From an uncultured Alphaproteobacteria bacterium (GTDB lineage: Bacteria; Pseudomonadota; Alphaproteobacteria; HIMB59; GCA-002718135): DNA of 64,000 nucleotides. The notes under the pieces are model-generated. The model was given only the letters and a program-made list of their open reading frames with translations. It was not told where the DNA came from and did not search any database. The stretch is from assembly GCA_902627245.1 (NCBI GenBank), contig CACOIH010000003.1, forward strand, positions 140-64,139, read 5' to 3'. The translations under genes and the position numbers were made by a program. Numbering within the stretch: position 1 is the stretch's first letter; each line of letters begins with the position of its first letter. This document shows, in pieces, positions 41,749 through 57,746 of this stretch.

Positions 41749-41780
41749 CTTAGGCTAGAAACGGCCTAAGTTTTTGTTTT
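41749..41780 (+). terminator. rho-independent terminator (plus-strand polarity)
   Basis: CTTAGGC-tagaaacg-GCCTAAG followed by TTTTTGTTTT. It also lies directly 3' of the convergent GMC gene. Confidence 0.6.
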
Positions 41781-43371
41781 AACTCAAAATTGTATCTGCA
41801 GCTTTCTCGGCAATCATCACAACATTAGCATTTAGATTGGCACTAACAATATCAGGCATAATTGAAGCATCTATAACTCGCAAATTTTGGACTCCATGAA
41901 CTCTAGTATCTTGATCAACTACAGAATCTTTATCAATGCCCATTTTGTTAGTACATGAAGGATGGTATGCAGATTCTGCAGTATTTCTAATCACTTCATC
42001 TAATTCTTCTTGATTTACAACTTGCTTTCCTGGCCTTATTTCATAATCAACGTAATCTGAAAGAGATTTTTGAGAACAAATATTTTGAGCAATTTTAATG
42101 CTTTGCCTCATTTGCTCTAAATCCTCTTTATGCTGTAGATAATTAAATTGAATTTTTGGATCTTTGGTAAAATCATCAGATGAAATTCTAACAAAACCTC
42201 TACTTTTTGGTCTATTTGGACAGGCATGAAATTGGAATGAGTCAAATTTTGGATTTTCTAAACCATGATTAATAACTAAAGAAGGGAAGAAATGAAATTG
42301 AAGATTTGGATGATTATAGTTAGGACTTGATTTTACAAAACCTCCAAGTTCTAAATGAGAATGTGATAGCTTACCTTTTCTCATCAAAAACCATTTTGCA
42401 CCTTCGATACATTGCGTAATCATATTAGTTGATAAATTATATAAAGTATCTTTACTTTTAGATTTATACTGTATGTAAAATTCTAAGTGATCTTGTAAAT
42501 TTTCCCCCACCCCTCTTAGATGATTAATTACTTTAATTCCTAAATCTTTAAGATGGTTATGATTTCCAATTCCAGATAGTTGTAAAATTTTTGGCGAGTT
42601 TATTGCTCCCGCACTCAAAATTACTTCTTTATTAGCAAAGTATTTTTTAGTTTGATTATTTGTTAAATATTCTATTCCAATAGCTACATTATTTTCAAAA
42701 ATTATTCTTTTCACATATGTGTTCTTTATAATTTTTAAATTTTTTCTATTTTTAATTGGATCGAGATAAGCTTTAGCAATACTTTGCCTAACTCCTTTAT
42801 CTATAGTAACATCAAAAGTTCCAAAACCTTCATTATTATCACCATTTGAGTCTTCAAATAAATTGTAACCTGCTTCATTAGCTGCTTTTGTAACAGCTTC
42901 AAAAAGTGGAAATTTTTTATCAATGGTTGATTTATTTACCTTTAAAGGCCCTTGAGAGCCTCTTAAAATATTATTTCCAGACCAAGTTTCTAGTTTTTTA
43001 AAAAATGGCAATACTTTTTCATAACTCCATTTATCTAAGCCGTACGATGCCCATCTATCAAAATCTTCTTTATGACCTCTTGCAAAAACCATACCATTAT
43101 GAGATGAACATCCTCCTAACATTTTACCTCTAGGACAATATAAACTTCTATTATTTAAATATGGTTCAGGCTCAGTATAATATTTCCAATTATATTTAGA
43201 GTCATGCATTACATATAAAAGTGCACTTGGCATATCAACCTTCCAAGTATTATTTGATGGACCTGCTTCAAATAAAGCTATGGTATTTGTCGATTTCGCT
43301 GATAATCTATTTGCTAATACGCAACCTGCAGATCCTGCACCAATTATTATATAATCTGCATTTGCAATCAC
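41779..43371 (-). CDS. GMC-family FAD oxidoreductase (choline dehydrogenase-like)
   Basis: N-terminal DYIIIGAGSAGCVLANRLS and GMC signature blocks. The C-terminal HPSCTNKMG and RVIDASIMP blocks contain the active-site His. Confidence 0.8.
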   Translation of the reverse strand: MIANADYIIIGAGSAGCVLANRLSAKSTNTIALFEAGPSNNTWKVDMPSALLYVMHDSKYNWKYYTEPEPYLNNRSLYCPRGKMLGGCSSHNGMVFARGHKEDFDRWASYGLDKWSYEKVLPFFKKLETWSGNNILRGSQGPLKVNKSTIDKKFPLFEAVTKAANEAGYNLFEDSNGDNNEGFGTFDVTIDKGVRQSIAKAYLDPIKNRKNLKIIKNTYVKRIIFENNVAIGIEYLTNNQTKKYFANKEVILSAGAINSPKILQLSGIGNHNHLKDLGIKVINHLRGVGENLQDHLEFYIQYKSKSKDTLYNLSTNMITQCIEGAKWFLMRKGKLSHSHLELGGFVKSSPNYNHPNLQFHFFPSLVINHGLENPKFDSFQFHACPNRPKSRGFVRISSDDFTKDPKIQFNYLQHKEDLEQMRQSIKIAQNICSQKSLSDYVDYEIRPGKQVVNQEELDEVIRNTAESAYHPSCTNKMGIDKDSVVDQDTRVHGVQNLRVIDASIMPDIVSANLNANVVMIAEKAADTILS

Positions 43372-44153
43372 TAATTCATTCTTTCTGTATTACCGTCCAC
43401 ACTGATAATCTGGCCAGAAATATTTTCAGAATCTTTACTTAACAAAAATAAAACCATTGATGCAATGTTTTCTTTTGTAACAAAAGTTCCCAAAGAAACC
43501 ATAGACTCAAATTCTTTTTTTACATTTTTTGGATTTGTTTTTGTTAATTTAGCTTTTGCATTAACAACTCTTTTCATTCTATCACCCTCAACAGATCCTG
43601 GACATATAGCATTTACTCTTATTTTGTATTTACCTAGTTCCATAGCTAAGGTTTTTGTTAAACCTATAATTGCCCATTTACTTGCAGTATATGGTGATCT
43701 TTGAGCAAATCCAAAAATACCTGCTGTTGATGAAAGATTTATGATTGAAGCTTTTGTTGATTTTTTTAATAAAGGTATTGCAAATTTTGTGTAATAAAAA
43801 TGACTATTAAGATTTGTGTTTATAGTTGTTTTCCAATCATCAATATTTATATTTTCAATATATTCTGTTGGTCCAGCAATACCAATATTATTAATTAAAC
43901 CATCAATTTTTTTTTGAGATTTAATTTCATTAAAATAATTTCTGACTTCTTTTGCATCAGTGCAATCAATACATTGAGCAAATATTTTATTTCTAAAATT
44001 TTTGTTTTTATTGATTTTTTCGATTTTTTTGCGATTTTTATCTGTTAGAAAAACTTTACCACCTGCGTTTATTATTTTTTTAGAAATTTCAAAACCAATT
44101 CCATCTCCAGCAGCAGAAATAATATATTTTTTGTTTTTTAAACTTATACTCAT
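43371..44153 (-). CDS. short-chain dehydrogenase/reductase (classical SDR)
   Basis: SAAGDGIGFE cofactor motif, NNIGIAG and YTASKWA (YxxxK). It overlaps the GMC start by 1 nt. Confidence 0.8.
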   Translation of the reverse strand: MSISLKNKKYIISAAGDGIGFEISKKIINAGGKVFLTDKNRKKIEKINKNKNFRNKIFAQCIDCTDAKEVRNYFNEIKSQKKIDGLINNIGIAGPTEYIENINIDDWKTTINTNLNSHFYYTKFAIPLLKKSTKASIINLSSTAGIFGFAQRSPYTASKWAIIGLTKTLAMELGKYKIRVNAICPGSVEGDRMKRVVNAKAKLTKTNPKNVKKEFESMVSLGTFVTKENIASMVLFLLSKDSENISGQIISVDGNTERMN

Positions 44154-44413
44154 AAAAACTTAAGTTCTTCCATAGTTATATAGCCTAGTGTCTTTCCTTT
44201 ATTATTGATTACTACCACAGTTAAGTTGTCTTTTACAATCTTGTCTTTAAATTTTTTAATAATTACATTTTCATTTACTTTAAATATATCACCTAAAGTT
44301 AATTTTGAATGATCAAAATTGGTTTTATCAATCATAATATCTTTTGCTTTTGAGTTGTAAAATTTAGTTTCTTTACTTTTAAATAAATTAAAAAAATTAG
44401 ATAAAAAAAACAT
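44150..44413 (-). CDS. small stand-alone CBS-domain-like protein
   Basis: 87 aa. The AKDIM...VVVINNKGKTLGYITMEEL pattern resembles a single CBS motif. It has a 4-nt overlap with the SDR gene. Confidence 0.4.
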   Translation of the reverse strand: MFFLSNFFNLFKSKETKFYNSKAKDIMIDKTNFDHSKLTLGDIFKVNENVIIKKFKDKIVKDNLTVVVINNKGKTLGYITMEELKFL

Positions 44414-44447
44414 ATATTAATTAATTATATTAATAAAAAATATCTAT

Positions 44448-46067
44448 TTATAAAGATCTCTTATTCAATAAATTGGTTAACCAATCTGGATCCATTTCCG
44501 GAACTGAGGATAATAGTAATTCAGTGTAATCTGGGTATGGTGGATTAAGAATTTTGCTTTTCAAACCTTGTTCAACAACTTCTCCTTGATACATAACCAC
44601 TATTTCATCTGAGATCGCTTTAACAGTTGCTATATCATGAGTTATAAAAATATAGGTAACACCAAGATCTTTTTGTAATTTTTGGAGTAGTTTTAATATT
44701 CCCTCTTGAACTATTTGATCTAATGCTGATGTAACTTCATCACAAATGATTAAATCTGGGTTGGCCGCTAAAGCTCGAGCAATACAAATTCTTTGTTTTT
44801 GACCTCCTGATAATTCAGATGGCAATCTATCAAGAAAACTCTCATCAAGCTCAATCATTTTTAAAAGTTCAATAACTTTATTTTCACGCTCTTTTCCTTT
44901 AATACCATGATAAAACTCTAGAGGTCTTCCAATAATTTCATCAACTGTTTGACGAGGATTCATCGCTGTGTCAGGCATTTGAAATATTATTTGAATTCTC
45001 CTTAATTGTTCTCTAGTTCTGTTTTCAAGCTTTGGTGGTAATTTTTCTCCATCAAAAATTATATTGCCTTTAAGTTGAGGTAATAAACCAGTTACTACCC
45101 TTGCGGTTGTTGATTTACCAGAACCACTCTCACCAACTATTGCAACAGTTTTTCCTTTAGGAATATCTATTGAGACATTATGTAATACTTTTGATGATCC
45201 ATATGCTGCATCAATATTTCTAATAGATAACATCATATTATCACTAGTTTCTTCAGGCTTAATTAAAGATCTTACAGACCATAATGACTTTGTATAATCT
45301 TCCTTTGGATTAGATAACATTTCTCTTGTCTCTGCTTCTTCTACCTCTTCTCCGTATCGTAAAACTTTAATTCTATCTGCCATTTGAGCTACTACTGCTA
45401 AGTCATGAGTTATGTAAATTGCAGCAGTATTAAATTGATCTACAATTTTTCTCATAGCTGATAGTACTTCTACTTGAGTTGTTACATCTAAAGCAGTTGT
45501 TGGCTCATCAAATATAATTAACTCAGGTCTAGGCGACATAGCCATAGCTGTCATAACTCTTTGCAACTGACCTCCAGACACTTGATGAGGATAACGCGAT
45601 CCAATATTTTCAGGTTCAGGCAATTGCAAAGAACGATATAATTCAATTGCATCTTTTTTTAAATTTTCAGATGTATCTAATTTCATTCTATTGCCTGCAC
45701 TAATTGTTTGCTCCATTAATCTGTGAGCAGGATTAAATGAGGCAGCAGCTGACTGAGCTACATAGGAAATTTTAGTGCCCCAAATTTTTCTTTTTTCGTA
45801 TTCATTTAGTTTAGCAAGATCAGTTCCATCAAAAATAACTTTACCACTGATTATCTTACAACCAGGTTGAGTATATCCCATTGCGGCTTTACCTAAAGTA
45901 GACTTACCTGCACCACTTTCTCCTATTAAACCTAATATTTCACCTCTGTTTAAGGTCAAATTAATTCCTTTTATGATTTTATGCCAACGCTCATCCGAAA
46001 ATCCATCAATTTTAATATTTTCTATAGTTAATAATAAATCACCTTTTTTATTGTTATTTGACATCAT
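44448..46067 (-). CDS. ABC transporter ATP-binding protein with two fused ATPase domains (Dpp/Opp D-F type)
   Basis: Two Walker A motifs (GESGAGKST, GESGSGKST), two signatures (VSGGQLQR, LSGGQKQR) and two Walker B motifs. Confidence 0.9.
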   Translation of the reverse strand: MMSNNNKKGDLLLTIENIKIDGFSDERWHKIIKGINLTLNRGEILGLIGESGAGKSTLGKAAMGYTQPGCKIISGKVIFDGTDLAKLNEYEKRKIWGTKISYVAQSAAASFNPAHRLMEQTISAGNRMKLDTSENLKKDAIELYRSLQLPEPENIGSRYPHQVSGGQLQRVMTAMAMSPRPELIIFDEPTTALDVTTQVEVLSAMRKIVDQFNTAAIYITHDLAVVAQMADRIKVLRYGEEVEEAETREMLSNPKEDYTKSLWSVRSLIKPEETSDNMMLSIRNIDAAYGSSKVLHNVSIDIPKGKTVAIVGESGSGKSTTARVVTGLLPQLKGNIIFDGEKLPPKLENRTREQLRRIQIIFQMPDTAMNPRQTVDEIIGRPLEFYHGIKGKERENKVIELLKMIELDESFLDRLPSELSGGQKQRICIARALAANPDLIICDEVTSALDQIVQEGILKLLQKLQKDLGVTYIFITHDIATVKAISDEIVVMYQGEVVEQGLKSKILNPPYPDYTELLLSSVPEMDPDWLTNLLNKRSL

Positions 46068-46974
46068 CTTTTAATCCACTTGTTATGTACAAATACCAAT
46101 CAACAACAAAATTTATTGATACACAAAGTAATGCGATAGCTGCAGCAGGAATTAATGGAGTTAAACCTGCAGTAATATCATATTGTGCATATTGGATTAG
46201 AATTGCATTCTCTCTAACCATAGATGCCCAATCAGCAGATGGTGGTTGAATACCAATTCCTAAAAAACTTAAACTCGAAATAGTAAAGATTATAAAAATA
46301 AACCTTAGACCAAATTCTATAATTAATGGTGAAGCTATATTGGGCAGTATTTCTCTATAAATAATATACGATAATTTTTCTCCTCTTAATCTTGCCACCT
46401 CCACATACTCTAAAACTACCTGGCCTACAGCAACTGATCTTGAAATTCTAAAAAATCTTGTTGATTCTAAGATTCCCAAAATCAAGATAAGATTTAGATT
46501 TGTAGGTCCAAAAACAGAAAGAAGAATAAAAGTAAAAATCATAACTGGTATGGACATTAATGTATCTACAATTCTACTTAAAATTTGATCAACATATCTT
46601 CTATCTAATGCCGCAATAATACCTAACACAGTACCAATAAATAACGCAAGAATAGTAGCTATTAAACAAATACCAATTGTGTTTCTAGCAGCAAAAATTA
46701 TTCTTGAAAATATATCTCTACCGATTTGGTCTGTTCCAAAAATATGACCGTCACCCCAAGGAGCATATGCTACAGGAAAAATTTCAGCTTCTCCGTGAGG
46801 CGCTATGAAAGGTGCAAATATAGCAGCAAAAAAATAAATAAACAAAACTATCATTCCGAACCATGCTGAAAATGGAGCTTTTGATAAAGCAATTTTTAAT
46901 CTTTCAAACTTAGTTCTTCTTTGAACCAAATTTGCAACTTCACCTTTTGCAGAATATGAGAGGTTTTCGCTCAT
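46054..46974 (-). CDS. ABC transporter permease (DppC/OppC-like)
   Basis: 306 aa with an N-terminal OppC-type segment and BPD-transporter core. It overlaps the neighbouring genes by 14 and 4 nt. Confidence 0.85.
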   Translation of the reverse strand: MSENLSYSAKGEVANLVQRRTKFERLKIALSKAPFSAWFGMIVLFIYFFAAIFAPFIAPHGEAEIFPVAYAPWGDGHIFGTDQIGRDIFSRIIFAARNTIGICLIATILALFIGTVLGIIAALDRRYVDQILSRIVDTLMSIPVMIFTFILLSVFGPTNLNLILILGILESTRFFRISRSVAVGQVVLEYVEVARLRGEKLSYIIYREILPNIASPLIIEFGLRFIFIIFTISSLSFLGIGIQPPSADWASMVRENAILIQYAQYDITAGLTPLIPAAAIALLCVSINFVVDWYLYITSGLKDDVK

Positions 46975-47969
46975 TTAGGATACAAAAGTCTAGGGTTAGA
47001 AATTATACCAATTAAGTCTGCGATTAAATTTAATATAACATATGTTGATGCAAATATTAATGCACATGCTTGAACTACAGGAAGGTCTCTATTGTAAACT
47101 GAACCTACCATTAGTCTGCCAATACCTTGGTAATTAAAAACATATTCAACAACTACTGAACCAATCAACATGTATGCTAAATTGATAGCAATAACCTGTG
47201 CGATAGGAGCCCATGCATTTGGAAGAGCATGCTTAACAACAACTTCATATCTTGATGCTCCAGATAGTTTTGCCATTTCAATATATTCACTTGATAGAAT
47301 ATTTATAATAGCTGATCTTGTCATTCTCATCATATGGCCCAAAGTAACTAAAGTTAAAGTAAAAACTGGAAGTGCTGTCCTGTAAAATCTTTCTATTAAA
47401 GTAGTATTTTCATCTACATTAGATATGGTTGGGAAAACTGGAAATAAAGTTGCTAATAAAAGAATGAATATGTAAGCAGTAAAAAATTCTGGGGATGAAA
47501 CTGTAACCAAACTAAATCCAGTAGCCGATCTATCATAATATGAGTTTCTATATAAAGCAGATGATATTCCTAATATTAGCGATAAAGGAATAGCAAACAA
47601 GGCGCATACACCTGTTAAAAATAAAGTATTTTTTAGTCTTGGTATAATTAAGCCTACCACTTCTCTTGATCTATCTCCTTGATCACCCTGGACTTTAGAT
47701 CTGCCAGAAAATGAACTTCCAAAGTCTCCCTGAAAAACATTGCCTAACCATTCAAAATATCTTGTAACTGGAGGCTTATCTAATCCTAATTCTGCCCTCA
47801 ATGCTTTGACAGCTGACTTAGTTGCACTTTGTCCTAAAATTTCTGTTGCAAAGTCCCCAGGCAAAAAAGAAAAGGTACTAAAAATAATTACAGAAAATGC
47901 AAATACCGTAATTAGACCAAGACTGAGCCTTAATAAGATTGTCCTAAATATTGGATGAATTCTGCTAAT
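46971..47969 (-). CDS. ABC transporter permease (DppB/OppB-like), probable non-canonical ATT start
   Basis: The open frame upstream of the ORF-track TTG start encodes the expected first TM helix (IHPIFRTILLRLSLGLITVFAFSVIIFSTFSFLPGDF). It contains no ATG, GTG or TTG. AGGAGG lies 5 nt upstream of the ATT at 47969-47967. Confidence 0.7.
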   Translation of the reverse strand: MSRIHPIFRTILLRLSLGLITVFAFSVIIFSTFSFLPGDFATEILGQSATKSAVKALRAELGLDKPPVTRYFEWLGNVFQGDFGSSFSGRSKVQGDQGDRSREVVGLIIPRLKNTLFLTGVCALFAIPLSLILGISSALYRNSYYDRSATGFSLVTVSSPEFFTAYIFILLLATLFPVFPTISNVDENTTLIERFYRTALPVFTLTLVTLGHMMRMTRSAIINILSSEYIEMAKLSGASRYEVVVKHALPNAWAPIAQVIAINLAYMLIGSVVVEYVFNYQGIGRLMVGSVYNRDLPVVQACALIFASTYVILNLIADLIGIISNPRLLYPK

Positions 47970-48127
47970 TTTTTCCTCCTGAATGAAACACGGTTATTTT
48001 TTAAGGTTATCTCTAAAATAGGTCAATATGCAACCTAAAATTCATAAATTATCCGTTGAATTAAAACAGTATATATGTTTGTATATATTAACTTAAGTTT
48101 GTTTTTTGTTAAATTTCTAGAAATTAT

Positions 48128-48152
48128 GAACAAAAACCTTAGGTTTTTGTTC
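48128..48152. promoter_or_regulatory. 25-nt perfect palindrome in the binding-protein leader
   Basis: GAACAAAAACC-tta-GGTTTTTGTTC. It ends 8 nt before the GGGAGG Shine-Dalgarno and 18 nt before the ATG at 48171. Confidence 0.5.
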
Positions 48153-48170
48153 AATTATAAGGGAGGACAA

Positions 48171-49811: not shown

Positions 49812-49840
49812 AAGTGGCGCATTTAGCGCCACTTTCCTTC
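49812..49840 (+). terminator. rho-independent terminator or attenuating hairpin after the binding-protein gene
   Basis: AAGTGGCGC-attt-AGCGCCACTT followed by TCCTTC. The U-tract is weak, so partial read-through is plausible. Confidence 0.55.
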
Positions 49841-49889
49841 ATTTCATACTCTATTTACATAAAAAATAATCTTCTTTAAAATTAATTAC

Positions 49890-50813: not shown

Positions 50814-50851
50814 TTTTTATATGTTTTAGGTTGATATATTAATAATATTAT

Positions 50852-52081: not shown

Positions 52082-52131
52082 GTTATTTTGTAATAGAAAT
52101 ATTTTTTATATTAGAATACTAATAATTTTAA

Positions 52132-53295
52132 ATGAATTATAACATCCAACCTAGCACTAAAATTCATACAATTGATGATGCTATTAAATTATCAAAAAAA
52201 AGATTACCTAAATTAGTATTTGATTTTATTGATGGCTCTTCCGGTGATGATAAGTTGGCAGAAATAAATAGCAGTGCATTAGATCAAATACGTTTAGAGC
52301 CAAAAGTATTTAAAAATGTTGAAAATAGAACTTTGAAAAAAACTATTTTGGATTTTAATTTTGATTTACCATTTGGGTTTGCTCCCATGGGTATGACAAA
52401 TCTATCTTGGCCAGAAGCTGATAAGATGTTTGCTAAAGAAAGTGTTCATAATAATATCCCAACATGTGTATCAATGGCATCAAGTACAACATTGGAAAAT
52501 ATGTATGAGTATTCTGAAGGACGTTCATGGATGCAAATATATATTTTTCAAGATGAGGAATTTATTATGGAACTTTTAGATAGAGCTAAAAATATTGGTT
52601 ATAAGGTATTAATTTTAACAGTTGATGTTCCTATACTTTCAAGAAGAGCTAGAGATGATAGAAACGGTTTTGGCTATCCATTTAAAATTGGTCCTAAACA
52701 ATTTTTCGACTTTGCACTTCATCCACGTTGGAGTCTTACAACTCTTCTTAAAGGCGCTCCTCGTCCAATGAATTATGTTACTTCTAGCAGTGGTGATCAA
52801 ATTTTTAGAAGAAAAGAAAGTAGAGGTGCTACAGACTGGAATACATTAAAAAGAATAAGGAATGCCTGGAAAGGCAAATTAATAATCAAAGGTATTATGA
52901 ATTCTGAAGATGCAATTAAGATTAAAGATTCTGGTGCAGATGCAATTCAAGTATCTAATCATGGCGGTAGGCAACTGGATAGTGCTACTGCAGCCATAAA
53001 TGCATTACCAAATATTAGAAACAAAATTGGAAATGATTTCCCTATAATATTTGATAGCGGAATAAGAAGTGGAAGTGATATTTTAAGAGCTTTAGCTTTT
53101 GGCGCTAACTTTGTTATGCTTGGCAGACCTTTAATGTATGCTGTTGGAGCAGATGGAGCAAGAGGATTAAGAAGAATTATCAATTTAATTAAAGAAGAGC
53201 TAAGCACAAATCTAGGCTTAGTAGGTTTAACAAATATAAATGATGTAAATGAGAAAATAATAGCAGAGAAGTATTTTAAGGATATAAAGTACTAA
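52132..53295 (+). CDS. FMN-dependent 2-hydroxyacid dehydrogenase/oxidase (LldD/glycolate oxidase family)
   Basis: TVDVPILSRRARDDRNGF and QVSNHGGRQLD catalytic blocks, plus the DSGIRSGSDILRALAFGA FMN-phosphate motif. Confidence 0.85.
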   Translation: MNYNIQPSTKIHTIDDAIKLSKKRLPKLVFDFIDGSSGDDKLAEINSSALDQIRLEPKVFKNVENRTLKKTILDFNFDLPFGFAPMGMTNLSWPEADKMFAKESVHNNIPTCVSMASSTTLENMYEYSEGRSWMQIYIFQDEEFIMELLDRAKNIGYKVLILTVDVPILSRRARDDRNGFGYPFKIGPKQFFDFALHPRWSLTTLLKGAPRPMNYVTSSSGDQIFRRKESRGATDWNTLKRIRNAWKGKLIIKGIMNSEDAIKIKDSGADAIQVSNHGGRQLDSATAAINALPNIRNKIGNDFPIIFDSGIRSGSDILRALAFGANFVMLGRPLMYAVGADGARGLRRIINLIKEELSTNLGLVGLTNINDVNEKIIAEKYFKDIKY

Positions 53296-53301
53296 AGATA
53301 A

Positions 53302-55044
53302 ATGAGTAATAAAAAAATAAGAGGTGGAGCACTAGTAGCAAGAGCACTTAATGATAAAGGTATAGAACACGTATTCACACTCTCTGGTGGTTTTTGTAAT
53401 CCAGCGTTAGAAGGATTTATGGAATGTCAAATTAATGTAATTAATTGTCCTCATGAACAAATTGCTGGTCATTTAGCTGATGGTCATACAAGAATATCAA
53501 GAAAACCATCAGTTTGTATAGTTGGTCCAGAAGGATTTGCCAATGCAGTTCCGTCAATGATGGAGGCATGGGGGGAAAGATCTCCAGTTATATTTATTAC
53601 AGGCTCAAGTAGCTTAAAACGACAAGGTTCAGGAGGTTTCAAAGAAATTGATGATGTATCAATTGCTGCCCCTCTTACAAAATACAGTGCAAGTATAACA
53701 GATGGCAACAGAATAAGAGAATTCGTAGATAAAGCTTATAGAATTGCAACAAATGGCTATCCAGGTGCAGTACATTTAAGTGTGCCAGTAGATATAATGT
53801 TTTCATCATTTGCAGATGATGCAGGTTTAGAAGAAAGGCCTTTTACTCATCAAAAGAAACCTTTGGCTAAAGCTTGGCCTGATCCTGAATTGTTAAATGA
53901 AGTATTTAATGTAGCAATTAGTGCTCAAAGACCAGTTATTATTGGAGGGCATGGAGTTTGGTGGTCTAATGCAGAAAAAAAATTAGAGCAAGCTGGGTTA
54001 GAATTAAATATTCCAATATTTAATATACCATATCATCAAAAACTTTTAGGCGAAGAGGCAGATACATATATGGGTCTAGCAGATATTCATCAATATCCTC
54101 CATCAAAAATGGCTCTCAATGAATCAGATTTGGTTCTCATGATTGGTGCACGTCTGGATAATCAAATGAATTTTGGAAATCCTCCACTTTTTCCAAAAAG
54201 CACTAAGCTTGTTTGTATTAATGGATCACATGAAGAAATAGAATTAAATAGAGCTGCAGATATTAACTTACTTTGTGATCCTGGAGTCTTTTTGGATAAA
54301 CTCGTAGAATTAAAAAAAAATAGTAAATGGAAATTAAATAATGAGTGGTTTGATAAGAATAAAAAAGAGAAAAAAAAATGGATTGATAATACGTTAGATG
54401 AATTAAATGAAGAAACTGAAGAGACAAAAAAAAATGGTGGAAAAATTCATCCTCTTCAGTTAGCTTTAGATGTTCAAGAAGTATTAACTGAAAATGATTG
54501 GTTAGTTATTGATGGTGGAAACACACATTTCTGGTCTGAGATTGCAATTAATATTGCCGGATCAAAAGGTAAAAAACTTGGAGGAATATTGCATCCAGGT
54601 ACTTTCAGTATGTTAGGTGTTGGAGTTCCTTTTGCAATATCAGCGAAAAATCTTAATCCTAAATCTAATGTTGTTTTGATAAGTGGAGATGGTGCATTTT
54701 TATCTGGCGGACTATCAATTGAAGCTGCATTTCAAGAAAAAAAACCTATTGTTGTAGTTATAGATAACAATGGAGGTCTTGACTGTATTTCTCAACAACA
54801 AGAAAGGTTATTTGAAAGTGGGAAACATTTTGCAACTGATTTTAGAGATATTCCATTTCATTCAATTTTTGAAGGTTTTGGAGGGCATGGAGAATTAGTT
54901 ACTAAAAGAGAAGATTTAGGCCCCGCTTTAAAAAGAGCGTTAGAAAGTGGTAAAACTGCATGTGTAAATGTTAAGGCTAAAGGTGTTATAAGTCCAATAG
55001 TTGCTGCAGTTAGTGATAAAAGAGATAAAGCGTCTATAGAGTAG
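53302..55044 (+). CDS. thiamine-diphosphate-dependent enzyme (acetolactate synthase / oxalyl-CoA decarboxylase / 2-hydroxyacyl-CoA lyase superfamily)
   Basis: N-terminal PYR domain with catalytic Glu (CPHEQIAGHLADG). The C-terminal ThDP motif is SGDGAFLSGGLSIE...VVVIDNNGG. Confidence 0.8.
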   Translation: MSNKKIRGGALVARALNDKGIEHVFTLSGGFCNPALEGFMECQINVINCPHEQIAGHLADGHTRISRKPSVCIVGPEGFANAVPSMMEAWGERSPVIFITGSSSLKRQGSGGFKEIDDVSIAAPLTKYSASITDGNRIREFVDKAYRIATNGYPGAVHLSVPVDIMFSSFADDAGLEERPFTHQKKPLAKAWPDPELLNEVFNVAISAQRPVIIGGHGVWWSNAEKKLEQAGLELNIPIFNIPYHQKLLGEEADTYMGLADIHQYPPSKMALNESDLVLMIGARLDNQMNFGNPPLFPKSTKLVCINGSHEEIELNRAADINLLCDPGVFLDKLVELKKNSKWKLNNEWFDKNKKEKKKWIDNTLDELNEETEETKKNGGKIHPLQLALDVQEVLTENDWLVIDGGNTHFWSEIAINIAGSKGKKLGGILHPGTFSMLGVGVPFAISAKNLNPKSNVVLISGDGAFLSGGLSIEAAFQEKKPIVVVIDNNGGLDCISQQQERLFESGKHFATDFRDIPFHSIFEGFGGHGELVTKREDLGPALKRALESGKTACVNVKAKGVISPIVAAVSDKRDKASIE

Positions 55045-55047
55045 GTT

Positions 55048-55383
55048 ATGGCAATTTTTTCTACACATTTACTAAATTCAATAGATGGTACGCATGCAAG
55101 TGATATAGAAATTGTTATTTATAAAGTAAATAATAATAATAAAGTTGTATTTCTAGAAGATAAAACAGATAGCTCTGGAAGAATGCTTAAAGAATTTGAA
55201 TTAACGAAAGAAGATTGTGAAAGTGATTATGAAATGATAATTAATACTGGTAAATATTTTAGAAATACTAGTGAAATAATTAATTCAATAAGTGTTAAAT
55301 TTAAAATGAAAGATCCTCTTAAAAAATATCACATACCTCTAATTATTTCTCCGAATGGATACTCAATATGGTGGTCTAAATAA
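55048..55383 (+). CDS. transthyretin-like protein (HIU hydrolase family) with non-canonical C-terminus
   Basis: N-terminal STHLLN, mid DSSGR and C-terminal YHIPLIISPNGYS family blocks are present. The family's terminal YRGS tetrapeptide is replaced by IWWSK. Confidence 0.65.
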   Translation: MAIFSTHLLNSIDGTHASDIEIVIYKVNNNNKVVFLEDKTDSSGRMLKEFELTKEDCESDYEMIINTGKYFRNTSEIINSISVKFKMKDPLKKYHIPLIISPNGYSIWWSK

Positions 55384-55384
55384 A

Positions 55385-56506
55385 ATGAGTAATTCAGGAT
55401 TAAACATGTCTAGACGTATTAGGCGGACTCCCTATACCGAGAAAGTAATTGAGGCTGGTGTAAGTGGTTTTACTGTAGTTAATCATATGCTTCTTCCAAA
55501 ATCATATAAAGCAACAGTAGAGGAAGATTATTGGCATTTATCTAAAAATACTCAAATTTGGGATGTTTCATGTCAACGACAGGTTCAAATAATAGGTGAA
55601 GATGCTGCAAAATTAATACAACTTATGTCTCCAAGATCAATAAAAGATATGCCTATTGGTAAATGTTATTATTATCCAATGATTGATGAAAATGCAGGGA
55701 TGATAAACGATCCTGTACTTTTAAAATTAAGTGAAAATAAATATTGGCTATCAGTTGCAGACTCAGATGTTCTTCTTTGGGCAAAAGGATTGGCTGTAGG
55801 AAGAAATTTTAAAGTTGATATTATAGAGCCAGATATTTACCCACTAGCAATTCAAGGTCCAAAATCTGAAGAATTAATGTCGTCAATATTTGGAGAAAAA
55901 ATTAAAAAATTAAAATTCTTTCATTTTTCTTTTTTTGAATTTGAAGGAACAAAGCAGATAATTGCAAGATCAGGATATAGCAAACAAGATGGTTTTGAGA
56001 TTTATCTTAAAGGTTTTAGTTTAGGAAAAAAACTTTGGGAAACTATTTGGGAAGCAGGAAAAGATTTTAATATTTCACCTGGATGTCCAAATTTAATAGA
56101 TAGAATAGAAGGTGGTTTATTATCCTATGGTAATGAATTTACTTTAGAAAACAATCCAATTGAATGTGGATTCGATAATTATTGTAATAATTTATCTCAT
56201 GATTTCATTGGAAAAAATGCACTAAAAAAAATATTAAAAAATGGAATAGAAAAAAAAATAAAAGGAATTACTTTTGATGGGTCCCCGACTCCTCCATGCT
56301 CAATACCTTTTCCAGTATACTCAAAAAATAGATTTCAAATTGGTAATATAACCTCTGGTATTTATTCACCATTTTTAAAAACCAATATTGGGCTATCAAT
56401 GGTGGATAGAGATTATTGGAATGATGGACAGGATGTTATCGTATTAACACCAGACAATATTGAGAGAAAAGGTAAAGTGTGCTCAATACCTTTTAATTAT
56501 TCTTAA
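55385..56506 (+). CDS. dmdA: DmdA-like GcvT-family demethylase (DMSP demethylase candidate)
   Basis: SRRIRRTPYT, NHMLLP, WDVSCQRQV, CYYYP, NDPV, YWLSVAD, IIEPDIYPLAIQGP, ARSGYSKQDGFEIY and GCPNLIDRIEGGLLSYGNE match the DmdA pattern as I recall it. I chose the start 1 nt after the upstream stop. Confidence 0.55.
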   Translation: MSNSGLNMSRRIRRTPYTEKVIEAGVSGFTVVNHMLLPKSYKATVEEDYWHLSKNTQIWDVSCQRQVQIIGEDAAKLIQLMSPRSIKDMPIGKCYYYPMIDENAGMINDPVLLKLSENKYWLSVADSDVLLWAKGLAVGRNFKVDIIEPDIYPLAIQGPKSEELMSSIFGEKIKKLKFFHFSFFEFEGTKQIIARSGYSKQDGFEIYLKGFSLGKKLWETIWEAGKDFNISPGCPNLIDRIEGGLLSYGNEFTLENNPIECGFDNYCNNLSHDFIGKNALKKILKNGIEKKIKGITFDGSPTPPCSIPFPVYSKNRFQIGNITSGIYSPFLKTNIGLSMVDRDYWNDGQDVIVLTPDNIERKGKVCSIPFNYS

Positions 56507-56507
56507 A

Positions 56508-56954
56508 ATGAGTCATTCAATCGAATTAAAGTGGGAATTAGGAGATCAAAAACTCGAATTTGGAAAATACTTAACTGATCACACAGTAATGCTTAACGAA
56601 AATGTATCTATTGATGCAGGATCATCTCCAGATTATGGAGGAAGCGAAACTAATATTAATCCAGAGCAAAAACTAGCTGCAGCTGTAAGTAGTTGTTTTA
56701 TGATGACTTTTTTAGCTTTAGCTGCAAAAATGAAATGGCCAGTTATTAATTACAAAGATAAAGCAATTTCGTATTTAGGAAAAAATGCAGAGGGAAGAAT
56801 GTACGTCAACAAAATAGAGCTAAATCCAGCTATAGTATTTGAAGATAATTTTAATATTTCTGATGAAGAGATGAAAAAGATGAAAGAGAGATCACATAAG
56901 TATTGTTTTATTGCTAATTCACTATCTAAAGATGTTGAAATTCAAATCAATTAA
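56508..56954 (+). CDS. OsmC/Ohr family protein
   Basis: 148 aa from the chosen ATG, with two family cysteines (SSCF and KYCFIANS). Confidence 0.7.
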   Translation: MSHSIELKWELGDQKLEFGKYLTDHTVMLNENVSIDAGSSPDYGGSETNINPEQKLAAAVSSCFMMTFLALAAKMKWPVINYKDKAISYLGKNAEGRMYVNKIELNPAIVFEDNFNISDEEMKKMKERSHKYCFIANSLSKDVEIQIN

Positions 56955-57746
56955 ATGAATTTTAATCTAATATTAACCGAAAAAAATAATAATATTTTTA
57001 ATATTATTCTTAATGACCAGAAAAACCAGAATACTTTAAGTGAAAACATGATCAATGAATTAACATCTGCGTTAGACATTGCTGATAAAGATAATGATGT
57101 AAAAGTAATTATTTTATCATCAAAAGGTAATATTTTTTGTGCAGGACATAATTTAAAAGATTTAAATTCACAAAGATTGCAAAATGACAAAGGGGAAAGC
57201 TATTTTAAAAAAATATTTCAAATGTGCTCTCAACTTATGCTGAAAATTAATAAAAATAATAAACCAGTTATAGCTATGGTTGATGGTATAGCTACTGCTG
57301 CAGGCTGTCAGTTAATTTCTAGCTGTGATTTAGCTTACTCAAGTAGCAGAGCAAAATATGCAACTCCTGGTGTTAATATTGGATTGTTTTGTTCTACACC
57401 AATGGTTCCATTATCAAGAACTGTAGGTAAAAAACAAGCAATGGAGATGCTTCTTACTGGAGATCTTATAAACGCAAATAAAGCTCTGAGGATTGGCCTA
57501 ATAAATGATGTCTTTGAAGAAGATAGTTTAAAAGAAAATGTATTTCAAATTGCTAAAAAAATATCGTCTAAATCTTCTAATACTATTAAAATTGGTAAAG
57601 AAGCTTTTTACAAACAAAAAGATATGAATTTAGAAGACGCATATACTTTTACTTCAAAGGTAATGACGGAAAATATGTTACACGATGATTCCAAGGAAGG
57701 TATTGAAGCTTTTTTAGAAAAAAGAGAGCCAAACTGGAAAGAATAA
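56955..57746 (+). CDS. enoyl-CoA hydratase/isomerase (crotonase) family protein
   Basis: FCAGHNLKDL and VDGIATAAGCQLISSCDLAY oxyanion-hole blocks. The start directly abuts the osmC-like stop. Confidence 0.85.
   Translation: MNFNLILTEKNNNIFNIILNDQKNQNTLSENMINELTSALDIADKDNDVKVIILSSKGNIFCAGHNLKDLNSQRLQNDKGESYFKKIFQMCSQLMLKINKNNKPVIAMVDGIATAAGCQLISSCDLAYSSSRAKYATPGVNIGLFCSTPMVPLSRTVGKKQAMEMLLTGDLINANKALRIGLINDVFEEDSLKENVFQIAKKISSKSSNTIKIGKEAFYKQKDMNLEDAYTFTSKVMTENMLHDDSKEGIEAFLEKREPNWKE

What the first reader, a model, noticed from the sequence alone, without database searches (positions are those of the whole stretch)
41779..57746. 16-kb divergent supercluster: candidate undescribed catabolic system for a methylated (onium) hydroxy-acid osmolyte
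The minus-strand operon runs permease-permease-fused ATPase-CBS-SDR-GMC oxidoreductase, with overlaps of 4, 14, 4 and 1 nt. On the plus strand a Tat-signal family-5 binding protein is followed by eight genes. The last six are separated by 6, 3, 1, 1 and 0 nt. In order the eight are:
- a homocysteine S-methyltransferase (BHMT/MmuM-like)
- a GcvT-fold protein
- an FMN 2-hydroxyacid dehydrogenase
- a ThDP enzyme of the ALS/oxalyl-CoA decarboxylase/HACL superfamily
- an atypical transthyretin-like protein
- a DmdA-like demethylase
- an OsmC-like protein
- a crotonase

I know of no characterised pathway with this composition. Three enzymes can strip methyl groups from activated sulfonium or quaternary-ammonium donors onto THF or homocysteine. 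Three dehydrogenases act on alcohol or 2-hydroxyacid groups. One ThDP enzyme can decarboxylate or cleave a 2-oxo or 2-hydroxyacyl intermediate, and one enzyme hydrates a CoA ester. That fits stepwise demethylation and carbon-skeleton breakdown of a compound such as a dimethylsulfonio-hydroxy acid (DMSHB or gonyol type) or a hydroxylated betaine. The specific substrate is speculation.
Basis: inference. Interest (0 to 1): 0.75.

Follow-up and report, generated by a model that had tools for sequence, protein, structure and literature searches.

The report
SAR11 methyl-sulfonium gene cluster, function unknown
A block of genes found across the ocean's most abundant bacteria (SAR11) joins a second, untested copy of the DMSP-demethylating enzyme to three enzymes of unknown substrate. 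In this lineage it is extended by a transporter and extra methyl-removing and alcohol-oxidising enzymes, so it is probably an undescribed route for using methylated sulfur compounds.

Summary
The exception is "CBS", which is only a weak hint. The tight spacing proves nothing, because the median same-strand gap in this window is 2 nt.

The full 16-kb arrangement recurs in about 30 species-level genomes of one SAR11-type lineage. Only a core is kept in other Pelagibacteraceae: FMN 2-hydroxyacid dehydrogenase, ThDP enzyme, transthyretin-like protein and DmdA-family demethylase. That order is intact in 72 of 72 loci, and a second GcvT-fold protein usually precedes it.

The "DmdA" passes NCBI's DmdA model but is only 50% identical to the characterised SAR11 enzyme. 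It is a paralogue: 80 classical dmdA loci carry none of the core genes. The ThDP enzyme belongs to an orphan subfamily. The transthyretin-like protein has WWS[K] at its C-terminus where I expect the hydrolase motif.

No paper in the searched library describes this block. My best reading is a one-carbon chain-shortening module for a sulfonium 2-hydroxy acid, coupled to methyl removal. DMSHB to DMSP is the archetype. The substrate is unproven.

Verdict: observation confirmed, interpretation partly supported.

The parts
41779..43371 (-). GMC flavoprotein oxidoreductase 1, choline-dehydrogenase-like (530 aa)
   Evidence: GMC_oxred_N/C. NF002550 choline dehydrogenase subfamily scores 701 bits, above the 605 cutoff. 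The betA equivalog scores 627, below 732. The orthologue in L006/L007 is 81% identical.
43371..44153 (-). Short-chain dehydrogenase/reductase (260 aa)
   Evidence: adh_short / adh_short_C2. No NCBIfam model reaches its cutoff. It is 68-74% identical in sister genomes, where flanking genes are above 90%.
44150..44413 (-). 87-aa protein with a possible single CBS motif
   Evidence: No Pfam hit at E<0.001. CBS appears only at E=0.02 and 15.6 bits, and likewise in the L006 orthologue. It is 51-61% identical in sister genomes.
44448..46067 (-). Fused double ATPase of a Dpp/Opp/Nik/opine-type ABC importer (539 aa)
   Evidence: Two ABC_tran domains plus oligo_HPY. The best NCBIfam hits are NikE, CntD/F and YejF-like.
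46054..46974 (-). ABC permease, OppC/NikC type (306 aa)
   Evidence: BPD_transp_1 + OppC_N. No equivalog is reached.
46971..47864 (-). ABC permease, OppB/NikB type (297 aa)
   Evidence: BPD_transp_1 + BPD_transp_1_N. No equivalog is reached.
48127..48153 (+). 27-nt perfect palindrome (12-bp stem) in the divergent intergenic region, about 18 nt upstream of the binding-protein start codon. It may be a 5'-UTR hairpin or an operator.
   Evidence: It is conserved in 21 sister loci with a C-to-T change that keeps a G.U pair. Its function is not tested.
48171..49799 (+). Family-5 solute-binding protein with a twin-arginine leader. The ORF opens at 48075; the likely start is 48171.
   Evidence: SBP_bac_5 at 228 bits. 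The best solved relative scores only 84 bits, a nickel-binding protein. RRQFM motif. The orthologue is 542 aa.
49812..49834 (+). Terminator-like hairpin (9-bp stem, 6 G-C pairs) after the binding-protein gene. A promoter-like site follows at 49854-49882.
   Evidence: This is a consensus scan only.
49890..50813 (+). Divergent homocysteine S-methyltransferase-family protein (307 aa)
   Evidence: PF02574 at 131 bits. The MmuM equivalog scores 86 (cutoff 215) and BHMT 78 (cutoff 338). DGG11, Cys199/200/206 and GGCC290 are present. It is only 66-69% identical in most sister genomes. A 52% homologue sits in the same position in L042/L043.
50852..52081 (+). GcvT-fold protein (409 aa), a putative THF-dependent methyltransferase distinct from DmdA
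   Evidence: GCV_T. The DmdA model scores 181 bits, below 410. It is 29% identical to HTCC1062 DmdA and 31% to the neighbouring DmdA-like protein. Orthologues at 62-67% identity precede the core in other Pelagibacteraceae.
52132..53295 (+). FMN-dependent 2-hydroxyacid dehydrogenase/oxidase (387 aa)
   Evidence: FMN_dh at 391 bits. SNHGGRQ signature at residue 275. The best solved relatives are L-lactate oxidase (282 bits) and (S)-mandelate dehydrogenase (237 bits). No equivalog is reached.
53302..55044 (+). Orphan ThDP enzyme (580 aa), the most conserved gene of the block
   Evidence: TPP_enzyme_N/M/C. HEQ51 and GDG...NN at 462. No equivalog is reached. PDB best hits are OXC/HACL at 194 bits and benzaldehyde lyase at 168. 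In a 1.84-billion-protein library only two other full-length 50% clusters (48% and 37% identity) stand above the 30-34% background. It is 81-97% identical in all 80 SAR11 loci.
55048..55383 (+). Transthyretin/HIUase-fold protein (111 aa) with a non-canonical C-terminus
   Evidence: PF00576 at 73 bits. The HIUase equivalog scores 72.4, below 87.45. His7, Arg45 and His95 are present and lie in columns identical to the bacterial TLPs. The C-terminus is ...GYSIWWSK. The WWS[KEQD] ending is conserved in 82 of 83 orthologues; one ends WWPK.
55385..56506 (+). DmdA-family THF-dependent demethylase (373 aa), paralogous to the characterised SAR11 DmdA
   Evidence: NF009133 scores 535 bits against a 410 cutoff. 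HTCC1062 DmdA scores 637 and the HIMB1695 copy 556. It is 50% identical to PDB 3TFH. The classical dmdA loci lack the neighbouring genes.
56508..56954 (+). OsmC/Ohr-family protein (148 aa) with two cysteines
   Evidence: PF02566. All NCBIfam models score below cutoff. Cys63 and Cys133. It follows the DmdA-like gene only in the window-type lineage.
56955..57746 (+). Crotonase-fold enoyl-CoA hydratase (263 aa), ECHDC3-like
   Evidence: ECH_1. PRK08139 scores 367, above 313. The best solved relative is human ECHDC3 at 239 bits, and DmdD is not among the matches.
57754..59226 (-). Aldehyde dehydrogenase, betaine-aldehyde-dehydrogenase-like (490 aa)
   Evidence: The BADH equivalog scores 462 bits, below 668.6. 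It is convergent with the crotonase and 89-91% identical in sister loci.
59229..60872 (-). GMC oxidoreductase 2 (547 aa)
   Evidence: The choline dehydrogenase subfamily model scores 511, below 605. It is syntenic in sister loci at 82-83%.
60884..61759 (-). EamA-type membrane transporter (291 aa)
   Evidence: The orthologue in L006 carries PF00892. Synteny at 84-91%.
61777..62937 (+). Gamma-butyrobetaine-dioxygenase-like Fe/2OG oxygenase (386 aa). This is a flanking gene, and its membership in the system is uncertain.
   Evidence: TIGR02409 scores 317 bits, below 415. TmpA scores 290, below 400. It is syntenic at 78-83% in sister loci.

Best explanation
The locus is built around a four-gene block that is conserved across SAR11. 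The block is an FMN-dependent 2-hydroxyacid dehydrogenase, an orphan ThDP enzyme, a small transthyretin-fold partner and a paralogous DmdA-family demethylase. A second GcvT-fold methyltransferase usually precedes it.

I read the block as a one-carbon chain-shortening (alpha-oxidation-type) module joined to sulfonium demethylation:
1. The flavoenzyme oxidises a 2-hydroxy acid that carries a methylated sulfonium (or other onium) group to the 2-oxo acid.
2. The ThDP enzyme breaks the C1-C2 bond.
3. An aldehyde dehydrogenase makes the acid that is one carbon shorter.
4. The DmdA-family enzyme moves a methyl group to tetrahydrofolate.

The archetype is DMSHB -> 4-dimethylsulfonio-2-oxobutyrate -> DMSP-aldehyde -> DMSP -> MMPA.

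In the window's lineage the block has gained further parts:
- a Tat-exported family-5 binding protein with its ABC importer
- a divergent homocysteine S-methyltransferase, which would pass a sulfonium methyl to homocysteine and so make methionine for a sulfur auxotroph
- two GMC oxidases, an SDR and a BADH-like aldehyde dehydrogenase, which take onium alcohols through aldehydes to acids
- an OsmC peroxidase, possibly against peroxide from the flavoenzyme
- a crotonase

What is shown: the gene families, the cofactor and active-site motifs, the synteny, and the fact that the DmdA copy is a paralogue.

What is inferred: every substrate, the order of steps, the role of the transthyretin-like protein, and whether the ThDP step releases CO2 or formyl-CoA.
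For: Families and motifs:
- The motifs SNHGGRQ, HEQ/GDG..NN and DGG/GGCC are all present.

Synteny of the core:
- The core order is intact in 72/72 genome loci, at ThDP identities of 81-97%.
- This holds in a genus where a 135-genome study reports that gene order is generally not conserved (bioRxiv 10.64898/2026.04.03.716430, read).
- The core is always next to a family-5 ABC importer, in three different arrangements.
- The homocysteine methyltransferase recurs before the GcvT-like gene in a second clade, L042/L043.

The individual proteins:
- The DmdA-family protein passes the curated DmdA model.
- The nearest solved relatives of the flavoenzyme are lactate oxidase and (S)-mandelate dehydrogenase. 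A flavoenzyme followed by a ThDP enzyme and an aldehyde dehydrogenase is the logic of the mandelate pathway (my own knowledge).
- A BADH-like aldehyde dehydrogenase sits next to the block in this lineage.

Background from papers:
- The enzyme(s) that convert DMSHB to DMSP are still unidentified in most organisms (PMC11306096).
- Only two DmdAs have been characterised (PMC5395565).
- Pelagibacter genomes carry 1-3 genes annotated dmdA.
Against: - No substrate evidence of any kind exists.
- The ThDP enzyme's closest solved relatives are the CoA-dependent OXC/HACL enzymes. Relatives in other taxa sit beside CoA ligase-like or thioesterase genes. SAR11 places a thiolase or a crotonase after the block. 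All this fits a CoA-ester lyase as well as, or better than, a 2-oxoacid decarboxylase.
- The aldehyde dehydrogenase, GMC enzymes, transporter, OsmC and crotonase are specific to this lineage.
- Many clades put a peptidase S51 and a peptide-type transporter next to the core, which hints at a peptide-like substrate.
- Adjacency is weak evidence in a genome that is 96% coding.
- A terminator-like hairpin separates the binding-protein gene from the rest.
- The role of the transthyretin-like protein is unexplained.
Confidence: 0.35

Rival explanations
1. This is CoA-dependent alpha-oxidation. The ThDP enzyme is a 2-hydroxyacyl-CoA lyase or an oxalyl-CoA-decarboxylase-type enzyme. It cleaves a 2-hydroxyacyl-CoA (or oxalyl-CoA) into formyl-CoA plus an aldehyde (or CO2). 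A PhyH-type dioxygenase or the flavoenzyme supplies or consumes the 2-hydroxy or 2-oxo species. The crotonase, the thiolase and the aldehyde dehydrogenase process the products. The C1 unit joins the folate pool that the two GcvT-fold enzymes also feed.
For: - The best solved relatives are OXC/HACL-synthases at 194 bits and actinobacterial HACL at 173 bits.
- The actinobacterial HACL model is among the top three NCBIfam hits for the SAR11 protein and for its 48% and 37% relatives.
- In a Thiotrichales MAG the relative follows a two-subunit ADP-forming CoA-ligase-like pair and precedes an aldehyde dehydrogenase and a GMC enzyme.
- The 48% relative is followed by a 4HBT thioesterase.
- SAR11 places a FadA-like thiolase or a crotonase after the block.
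- PhyH-family dioxygenases occur in two variant loci.
Against: - No CoA ligase or CoA transferase is in any SAR11 version of the locus.
- No OXC or HACL equivalog cutoff is reached: 244 against 600, and 203 against 557.
- A 2-hydroxyacid dehydrogenase that acts on free acids has no obvious place upstream of a CoA-ester lyase.
- The two PhyH genes are not orthologous, so they may be coincidental.
Confidence: 0.2
2. The locus is a mosaic of unrelated units packed together by genome streamlining:
- a peptide, nickel or opine-type ABC importer
- choline-type alcohol oxidation (GMC plus BADH-like enzymes)
- an extra methionine-forming methyltransferase
- a lactate or glycolate-type flavoenzyme with a ThDP carboligase
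- a spare DMSP demethylase with a stress protein and a fatty-acid hydratase

On this reading there is no single 16-kb pathway. At most, the four-gene core shares regulation.
For: - The median same-strand gap in the window is 2 nt and 96% of it is coding, so spacing carries no signal.
- Only the core is conserved outside one lineage.
- The transporter next to the core in other clades is only about 30% identical, so it is not orthologous.
- A terminator-like hairpin and a promoter-like site follow the binding-protein gene.
- Divergence between sister genomes is very uneven: binding protein 98%, methyltransferase 67%, ThDP 96%, 87-aa protein 53%.
- Carnitine-type genes flank the region.
Against: - The core order is intact in 72/72 loci across divergent clades, in a genus with poor gene-order conservation.
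- Different family-5 importers and the methyltransferase have been recruited repeatedly beside the core.
- Methyl-onium chemistry is a coherent theme across about 25 kb.
Confidence: 0.25
3. This is a methionine-yielding salvage route, not catabolism. A sulfonium or thioether 2-hydroxy acid (DMSHB, or MTHB/HMTBA) is demethylated and oxidised to 4-methylthio-2-oxobutyrate. That product is transaminated to methionine, the sulfur source SAR11 cannot make from sulfate. The ThDP branch diverts any excess to methional and MMPA.
For: - All Pelagibacter depend on reduced sulfur.
- A homocysteine S-methyltransferase-family gene is in the cluster.
- An IlvE-type aminotransferase passes its equivalog (463 against 396) and lies two genes after the DmdA-like gene in 14 loci.
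- FMN 2-hydroxyacid oxidases are known to convert the methionine hydroxy analogue to the oxo acid in animals (my own knowledge).
Against: - IlvE is a housekeeping gene, and it is absent from the window's version of the locus.
- This reading gives no essential role to the most conserved gene, the ThDP enzyme.
- There is no direct evidence.
Confidence: 0.1

Closest known systems
DMSP demethylation pathway (DmdA-DmdB-DmdC-DmdD/AcuH) of SAR11 and Roseobacter
   Same: It has a GcvT-fold, THF-dependent demethylase that passes the curated DmdA model (535 bits, cutoff 410). A crotonase lies two genes downstream. The organism is a SAR11-type sulfur auxotroph.
   Different: - The demethylase is only 50% identical to the characterised HTCC1062 enzyme.
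- It lies at another locus. 80 classical dmdA loci carry none of the core genes within 7 kb.
- No homologue of the flavoenzyme, the ThDP enzyme or the transthyretin-like protein is part of the known pathway.
- No dmdB or dmdC is here.
- The crotonase is ECHDC3-like, not DmdD.
SAR11_1265, the 'DmdA-like aminomethyltransferase of unknown substrate' of Sun et al. 2011 (PMC3160333)
   Same: It is described as a DmdA-related paralogue present at about one copy per SAR11 cell in ocean metagenomes, with its function only speculated. That matches the abundance and paralogy seen here.
   Different: SAR11_1265 is reported next to metF, which is absent here.
Mandelate pathway (MdlB FMN (S)-mandelate dehydrogenase, MdlC benzoylformate decarboxylase, MdlD aldehyde dehydrogenase)
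   Same: An FMN 2-hydroxyacid dehydrogenase, with mandelate dehydrogenase among its nearest solved relatives, is followed directly by a ThDP enzyme. An aldehyde dehydrogenase is nearby. The net chemistry would be a 2-hydroxy acid shortened by one carbon.
   Different: - The ThDP enzyme is nearest to OXC/HACL and benzaldehyde lyase; benzoylformate decarboxylase is not among the 60 best solved matches listed.
- There is no racemase.
- The companions are methyltransferases, not aromatic-ring enzymes.
Peroxisomal/bacterial alpha-oxidation (PhyH hydroxylase, 2-hydroxyacyl-CoA lyase HACL1, aldehyde dehydrogenase) and oxalyl-CoA decarboxylase
   Same: The ThDP enzyme's best solved relatives are HACL/OXC. 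PhyH-family genes occur in variant loci. An aldehyde dehydrogenase is adjacent.
   Different: All equivalog cutoffs are missed. There is no CoA-activating enzyme. The PhyH genes are absent from the window itself and are not orthologous to each other.
5-hydroxyisourate hydrolase / bacterial transthyretin-like proteins
   Same: It has the same fold family (PF00576). Query His7, Arg45 and His95 lie in columns identical to the bacterial TLPs.
   Different: - The HIUase equivalog is missed (72.4 against 87.45).
- The C-terminus is WWS[KEQD] in 82 of 83 orthologues, where HIUases carry Tyr-Arg-Gly-Ser (my own knowledge).
- No purine-degradation genes are nearby.
Choline to glycine betaine oxidation (BetA/BetB) and BHMT/MmuM homocysteine methyltransferases
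   Same: There are two GMC enzymes of the choline-dehydrogenase group, a BADH-like aldehyde dehydrogenase, and a PF02574 methyltransferase with the DGG/GGCC motifs and candidate zinc-ligand cysteines.
   Different: None reaches its equivalog cutoff:
- betA 627 against 732
- BADH 462 against 669
- MmuM 86 against 215
- BHMT 78 against 338

Membership tests
DmdA (DMSP demethylase) | Score at or above the curated cutoff of the NCBIfam equivalog NF009133 | tested here: met
   535 bits against a 410 cutoff. HTCC1062 DmdA scores 637 and the HIMB1695 copy 556.
DmdA (DMSP demethylase) | Close sequence relationship to a biochemically characterised DmdA | tested here: inconclusive
   50% identity over 360 aligned residues to P. 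ubique HTCC1062 DmdA (PDB 3TFH). Only two DmdAs have been characterised.
DmdA (DMSP demethylase) | Genomic position of the classical SAR11 dmdA (with dmdB/dmdC-type acyl-CoA genes) | tested here: not met
   80 metagenomic loci with HTCC1062-type dmdA (81-100% identity) have no FMN_dh, ThDP, TTR or GcvT-like gene within 7 kb. No dmdB or dmdC is in the window locus.
DmdA (DMSP demethylase) | THF-dependent methyl transfer from DMSP giving MMPA and 5-methyl-THF | not testable with these tools
   This needs an enzyme assay.
5-hydroxyisourate hydrolase | Equivalog score (TIGR02962) and the C-terminal Tyr-Arg-Gly-Ser signature | tested here: not met
   72.4 bits, below 87.45. The C-terminus is IWWSK, and WWS[KEQD] is conserved in 82 of 83 orthologues. 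The YRGS signature is from my own knowledge of the family.
5-hydroxyisourate hydrolase | Transthyretin fold with the conserved His / Arg / His positions | tested here: met
   PF00576 at 72.7 bits. In the alignment to 2G2N, 2IGL and 2GPZ, query His7, Arg45 and His95 fall in identical columns.
Oxalyl-CoA decarboxylase / 2-hydroxyacyl-CoA lyase | Equivalog-level similarity | tested here: not met
   HACL NF058623 scores 244, below 600. OXC NF006721 scores 203, below 557. TIGR03254 scores 186, below 739. These are nevertheless the best solved relatives.
Oxalyl-CoA decarboxylase / 2-hydroxyacyl-CoA lyase | CoA (and ADP) binding pocket residues | not tested
   This needs a structural superposition on OXC or HACL complexes. 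The tools return no model coordinates.
ThDP-dependent enzyme superfamily | Three-domain architecture, activating Glu and the GDG-X-NN ThDP motif | tested here: met
   TPP_enzyme_N/M/C. HEQ at residue 51 and GDGAF...IDNN at 462-490.
FMN-dependent alpha-hydroxyacid dehydrogenase/oxidase | Family model plus the SNHG[AG]RQ active-site signature | tested here: met
   PF01070 at 391 bits. SNHGGRQ at residue 275.
L-lactate dehydrogenase LldD / lactate oxidase | Curated cutoffs of the specific models | tested here: not met
   PRK11197 scores 272, below 376. LldD scores 227, below 550. Lactate oxidase scores 179, below 646.
MmuM / BHMT homocysteine S-methyltransferases | Pfam family plus the DGG and GGCC motifs and a further upstream cysteine as candidate zinc ligands | tested here: met
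   PF02574 at 131 bits. DGG11, Cys199/200/206 and GGCC290. The assignment of these residues as zinc ligands is from my own knowledge.
MmuM / BHMT homocysteine S-methyltransferases | Equivalog-level similarity to MmuM or BHMT | tested here: not met
   86 against 215, and 78 against 338. PDB relatives score 55 bits or less.
BetA/BetB choline oxidation | Curated cutoffs for choline dehydrogenase and betaine-aldehyde dehydrogenase | tested here: inconclusive
   GMC1 passes the subfamily model (701 against 605) but not the betA equivalog (627 against 732). GMC2 fails both. The aldehyde dehydrogenase fails BADH (462 against 669).
Dpp/Opp/Nik/opine (PepT-type) ABC importer | Family-5 binding protein, two BPD_transp_1 permeases, ATPase with an oligo_HPY tail | tested here: met
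   No ligand-specific equivalog is reached, so the ligand is unknown.
DmdD (methylthioacryloyl-CoA hydratase) | Specific similarity to DmdD within the crotonase superfamily | tested here: not met
   The best solved relative is human ECHDC3 at 239 bits. DmdD is absent from the 60 best of the 63 matches at E<=1e-20.

The most novel reading that the evidence does not exclude
The SAR11-wide flavoenzyme-ThDP-transthyretin-like block is the long-sought, widespread activity that turns DMSHB (or a related sulfonium 2-hydroxy acid) into DMSP. It passes its product directly to a dedicated second DmdA. If so, the ocean's most abundant bacteria would harvest a DMSP precursor pool that current sulfur-cycle budgets and dmdA-based field assays do not distinguish. 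The lineage-specific transporter and homocysteine methyltransferase would make methionine from the same compounds.
Probability: 0.12. Interest if true: 0.85.

Novelty: new variant of a known kind. Interest (0 to 1): 0.6.

Why it matters
SAR11 bacteria dominate the surface ocean and cannot reduce sulfate. How they obtain and process methylated sulfur compounds therefore shapes marine sulfur, carbon and climate-gas fluxes.

This work shows three things:
- The gene counted as "dmdA" in these genomes can be a paralogue. It is joined to three uncharacterised enzymes and is not the studied demethylase. That affects how copy numbers and field assays of dmdA are read.
- The ThDP enzyme is an orphan subfamily under very strong constraint, and it is very abundant in marine metagenomes.
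- The block gives a concrete, testable candidate for converting sulfonium 2-hydroxy acids such as DMSHB. A 2024 study states that this step is still unassigned in most organisms.

Cultured carriers exist (HIMB1695, HIMB1709, Uisw_090), so the hypothesis can be tested directly.

Tried and rejected
- Riboswitches. SAM-type leaders control bhmT, mmuM and osmC in HTCC1062 (PMC5069961). Rfam gave no hit in 41-62 kb, even at E<=1.
- Homarine operon homABCDER (PMC13236597). Its composition is unrelated.
- Literature on locus tags SAR11_0242-0247 and SAR11_1264-1268. Nothing turned up beyond Sun 2011 and Smith 2016, and neither describes the block.
- The SAR11 binding-protein screen (PMC11485210). The text searches turned up no family-5 or peptide-type binding protein.
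- The idea that the window's DmdA is the classical SAR11 dmdA. I rejected this: 48-50% identity and a different locus.
- HIUase function for the transthyretin-like protein. I rejected this on the equivalog score and the C-terminal motif.
- DmdD identity for the crotonase. Rejected.
- AruI (2-ketoarginine decarboxylase) identity for the ThDP subfamily, which the aminotransferase/arginase context in Cribrihabitans suggested. Rejected: 135-178 bits against a 500 cutoff.
- Biosynthetic acetolactate synthase. Rejected: 235 against 538.
- PhyH genes as a conserved accessory. The two are not orthologous.
- Contexts of the nearest non-SAR11 ThDP relatives. They are heterogeneous, and none has FMN_dh, TTR or DmdA-like neighbours.
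- One context look-up failed for lack of a free slot.
- Mapping the published "key DMSP residue W171" failed, because that paper's numbering is alignment-based.

Full report
**What is there**

The window is about 30% G+C and 96% coding. All 80 loci related to the ThDP gene come from Pelagibacterales-type genomes, so this is a SAR11-type genome.

Each falls in the stated family.
- Minus strand: two BPD_transp_1 permeases, a fused double ABC ATPase with an oligo_HPY tail, an 87-aa protein, an SDR and a GMC oxidoreductase.
- Plus strand: a family-5 binding protein, a PF02574 homocysteine S-methyltransferase-family protein, a GcvT-fold protein, an FMN 2-hydroxyacid dehydrogenase, a three-domain ThDP enzyme, a transthyretin/HIUase-fold protein, a second GcvT-fold protein, an OsmC protein and a crotonase.

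Cofactor and active-site motifs are intact:
- SNHGGRQ in the flavoenzyme
- HEQ51 and GDG...NN in the ThDP enzyme
- DGG and GGCC plus further cysteines in the methyltransferase
- two cysteines in OsmC
- an RRQFM twin-arginine motif in the binding protein

"CBS" for the 87-aa protein is only a sub-threshold hint (E=0.02).

**Is the spacing meaningful?**

No. The stated overlaps and gaps are correct once the starts of the DmdA-like gene (55385) and the OsmC gene (56508) are chosen as the homologues indicate. But the window as a whole has a median same-strand gap of 2 nt, and 24 of 39 such gaps are 10 nt or less. Convergent pairs also abut. Spacing cannot be used as evidence of coupling here.

A G+C-rich terminator-like hairpin (49812-49834) and a promoter-like site follow the binding-protein gene. 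A conserved 27-nt palindrome lies just upstream of that gene's ribosome-binding site.

**Synteny**

The ThDP protein found at least 562 relatives in a collection with one genome per species. The best 80 loci were mapped with all window proteins.

About 30 genomes carry ThDP at 94-97% identity. They are single-cell genomes labelled "uncultured Alphaproteobacteria". In these genomes the window's arrangement is reproduced as far as the 10-kb flanks reach: SDR, 87-aa protein, ATPase, permeases / binding protein, methyltransferase, GcvT-like, flavoenzyme, ThDP, TTR-like, DmdA-like, OsmC, crotonase / aldehyde dehydrogenase, GMC2, EamA. GMC1 is seen only in L006/L007, which were centred further upstream. 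Most of these loci also carry the butyrobetaine-dioxygenase-like gene. Four loci have an extra gene-sized interval between the ATPase and the 87-aa gene; in L006/L007 it holds a PhyH-family dioxygenase.

In the other Pelagibacteraceae (ThDP 81-88%) only a core is kept. The order flavoenzyme-ThDP-TTR-like-DmdA-like is intact in 72 of 72 loci with enough flank. A GcvT-like orthologue (62-67% identity) usually precedes it.
- The transporter beside the core in those clades is a different family-5 system, about 30% identical and on the other strand.
- A peptidase S51 is often inserted.
- A FadA-like thiolase, sometimes followed by IlvE, replaces OsmC and the crotonase.
- One locus has a 51%-identical binding protein directly before the flavoenzyme (L061). 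Two loci have a 52%-identical methyltransferase before the GcvT-like gene (L042/L043).

A 135-genome study reports that gene order is generally not conserved in the genus. The invariance of the core therefore means something. The 16-kb unit as a whole is specific to one lineage.

**The "DmdA"**

It passes NCBI's DmdA equivalog at 535 bits, against a 410 cutoff. The HTCC1062 enzyme scores 637. It is only 48-50% identical to that enzyme.

A metagenome scan with the HTCC1062 sequence returned 80 loci at 81-100% identity. None has any core gene within 7 kb. The window's gene is therefore a paralogous DmdA-family clade at a separate locus.

This agrees with two reports. The first is that Pelagibacter genomes carry 1-3 "dmdA" copies, with the classical one inside an sdh-asd-dmdA-acyl-CoA-leuBDC block. 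The second is Sun et al.'s "DmdA-like" SAR11_1265 of unknown function. I could not test orthology to SAR11_1265.

Only two DmdAs have ever been characterised.

**The other core proteins**

*ThDP enzyme.* It is an orphan.
- No NCBIfam model reaches its cutoff.
- The best solved relatives are OXC/HACL (194 bits), benzaldehyde lyase and catabolic acetolactate synthase.
- In a library of 1.84 billion representatives, only two other full-length 50% clusters stand above the 30-34% background, at 48% and 37% identity.
- Those relatives sit in heterogeneous contexts. One lies between aminotransferases near an arginase-family gene, a Dabb protein and a family-5 transporter. One lies among CoA-ligase-like, aldehyde dehydrogenase, GMC and Xsc/Pta genes. 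One lies among an SDR, a thioesterase and an E1-like pair. None has the SAR11 neighbours.

*Flavoenzyme.* It is nearest to lactate oxidase and (S)-mandelate dehydrogenase.

*Transthyretin-like protein.* Its His7, Arg45 and His95 lie in columns identical to the bacterial TLPs. It misses the HIUase equivalog. It ends in WWS[KEQD] in 82 of 83 orthologues, where I expect Tyr-Arg-Gly-Ser from my own knowledge of the family. It is therefore probably not a hydroxyisourate hydrolase.

**Lineage-specific additions and flanks**

- GMC1 passes a choline-dehydrogenase subfamily model but not the betA equivalog.
- GMC2 and the BADH-like aldehyde dehydrogenase miss their cutoffs.
- The methyltransferase is far from both MmuM and BHMT.
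- The crotonase is ECHDC3-like, not DmdD.
- The flanks hold a BKACE-like gene, a carnitine-dehydrogenase-like gene and a butyrobetaine-dioxygenase-like gene. About 25 kb therefore has a methyl-onium theme.

**Mechanism**

The most economical link between a 2-hydroxyacid dehydrogenase, a ThDP enzyme and a DmdA-family enzyme is one-carbon shortening of a sulfonium 2-hydroxy acid to the DmdA substrate. The archetype is DMSHB -> oxo acid -> DMSP-aldehyde -> DMSP -> MMPA. This follows the mandelate-pathway logic.

In this lineage an importer, a methionine-forming methyltransferase and alcohol and aldehyde oxidases have been added. A 2024 study states that the DMSHB-to-DMSP step is unassigned in most organisms.

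I give this reading a confidence of 0.35 as a scheme and about 0.12 for DMSHB itself. The main rivals are these:
- a CoA-dependent alpha-oxidation reading, supported by the OXC/HACL affinity and the CoA-handling neighbours
- a mosaic of unrelated units
- a methionine-salvage reading

**Verdict**

This is a real, conserved and undescribed gene block built from known enzyme families. It contains a known-family demethylase that turns out to be an unstudied paralogue. The "supercluster" is a lineage-specific elaboration of a smaller SAR11-wide core, and the substrate is unknown.

Noticed in passing
window 7942-13605: A tRNA-Leu(taa) lies at 7942-8026. A stretch of 20-23% G+C follows it, against about 30% elsewhere. 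The stretch encodes a family-2 glycosyltransferase, an NAD epimerase/dehydratase, a C-methyltransferase and two ORFs with no Pfam hit. It looks like a small surface-polysaccharide island of the kind described as tRNA-anchored hypervariable regions in Pelagibacter.
   Followed up: partly
window 37121-41388: Just upstream of the cluster lie four genes: a BKACE-like beta-keto-acid cleavage enzyme, an L-carnitine-dehydrogenase-like protein (338 bits against a 414 cutoff), an MDR-family reductase and a RamB-like regulator. This suggests a carnitine-type quaternary-amine module adjoining the cluster.
   Followed up: partly
window 61777-62937: This gene is gamma-butyrobetaine-dioxygenase-like and TmpA-like, an Fe/2OG oxygenase. 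It scores 317 and 290 bits, both below cutoff. It is syntenic in most sister genomes at 78-83% identity.
   Followed up: partly
window 48127-48153: A perfect 27-nt palindrome (TGAACAAAAACCTTAGGTTTTTGTTCA) lies immediately upstream of the binding-protein ribosome-binding site. It is conserved in 21 sister loci, where a C-to-T change keeps a G.U pair. That fits an mRNA hairpin better than a DNA operator.
   Followed up: partly
window 43371-44413 and 49890-52081, compared with L009-L040: Divergence between sister genomes is very uneven.
- Binding protein, ThDP, DmdA-like, OsmC and crotonase: 94-100% identical.
- Methyltransferase: 66-69%.
- GcvT-like protein: 78-80%.
- SDR: 68-72%.
- 87-aa protein: 51-61%.
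Two loci (L027, L039) carry an intermediate allele. The window's own allele occurs at 99-100% only on short Tara/ENA contigs. This may reflect allelic replacement or diversifying selection on substrate-specifying genes.
   Followed up: partly
L006/L007 2746-3576; L061 1459-2298: PhyH-family Fe/2OG dioxygenases are inserted next to the transporter in two variant loci. The two proteins are not orthologous to each other.
   Followed up: yes
L092 (Cribrihabitans marinus), L093 (Thiotrichales MAG): The 37%-identity branch of the ThDP subfamily tends to have a small Dabb (PF07876) protein nearby. In L093 the Dabb gene lies directly downstream of the ThDP gene. That is the position the transthyretin-like protein holds in SAR11 and a 4HBT thioesterase holds in the 48% relative (L094). 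A small partner gene after this ThDP enzyme may be a recurring feature.
   Followed up: no
L008, L089, L090 (other Pelagibacteraceae): In these clades the locus also carries a FadB-like 740-aa 3-hydroxyacyl-CoA dehydrogenase/hydratase and an arginase-family gene beyond the transporter. A spermidine/putrescine-type ABC system (SBP_bac_8, TOBE_2 ATPase) lies downstream of the thiolase.
   Followed up: no
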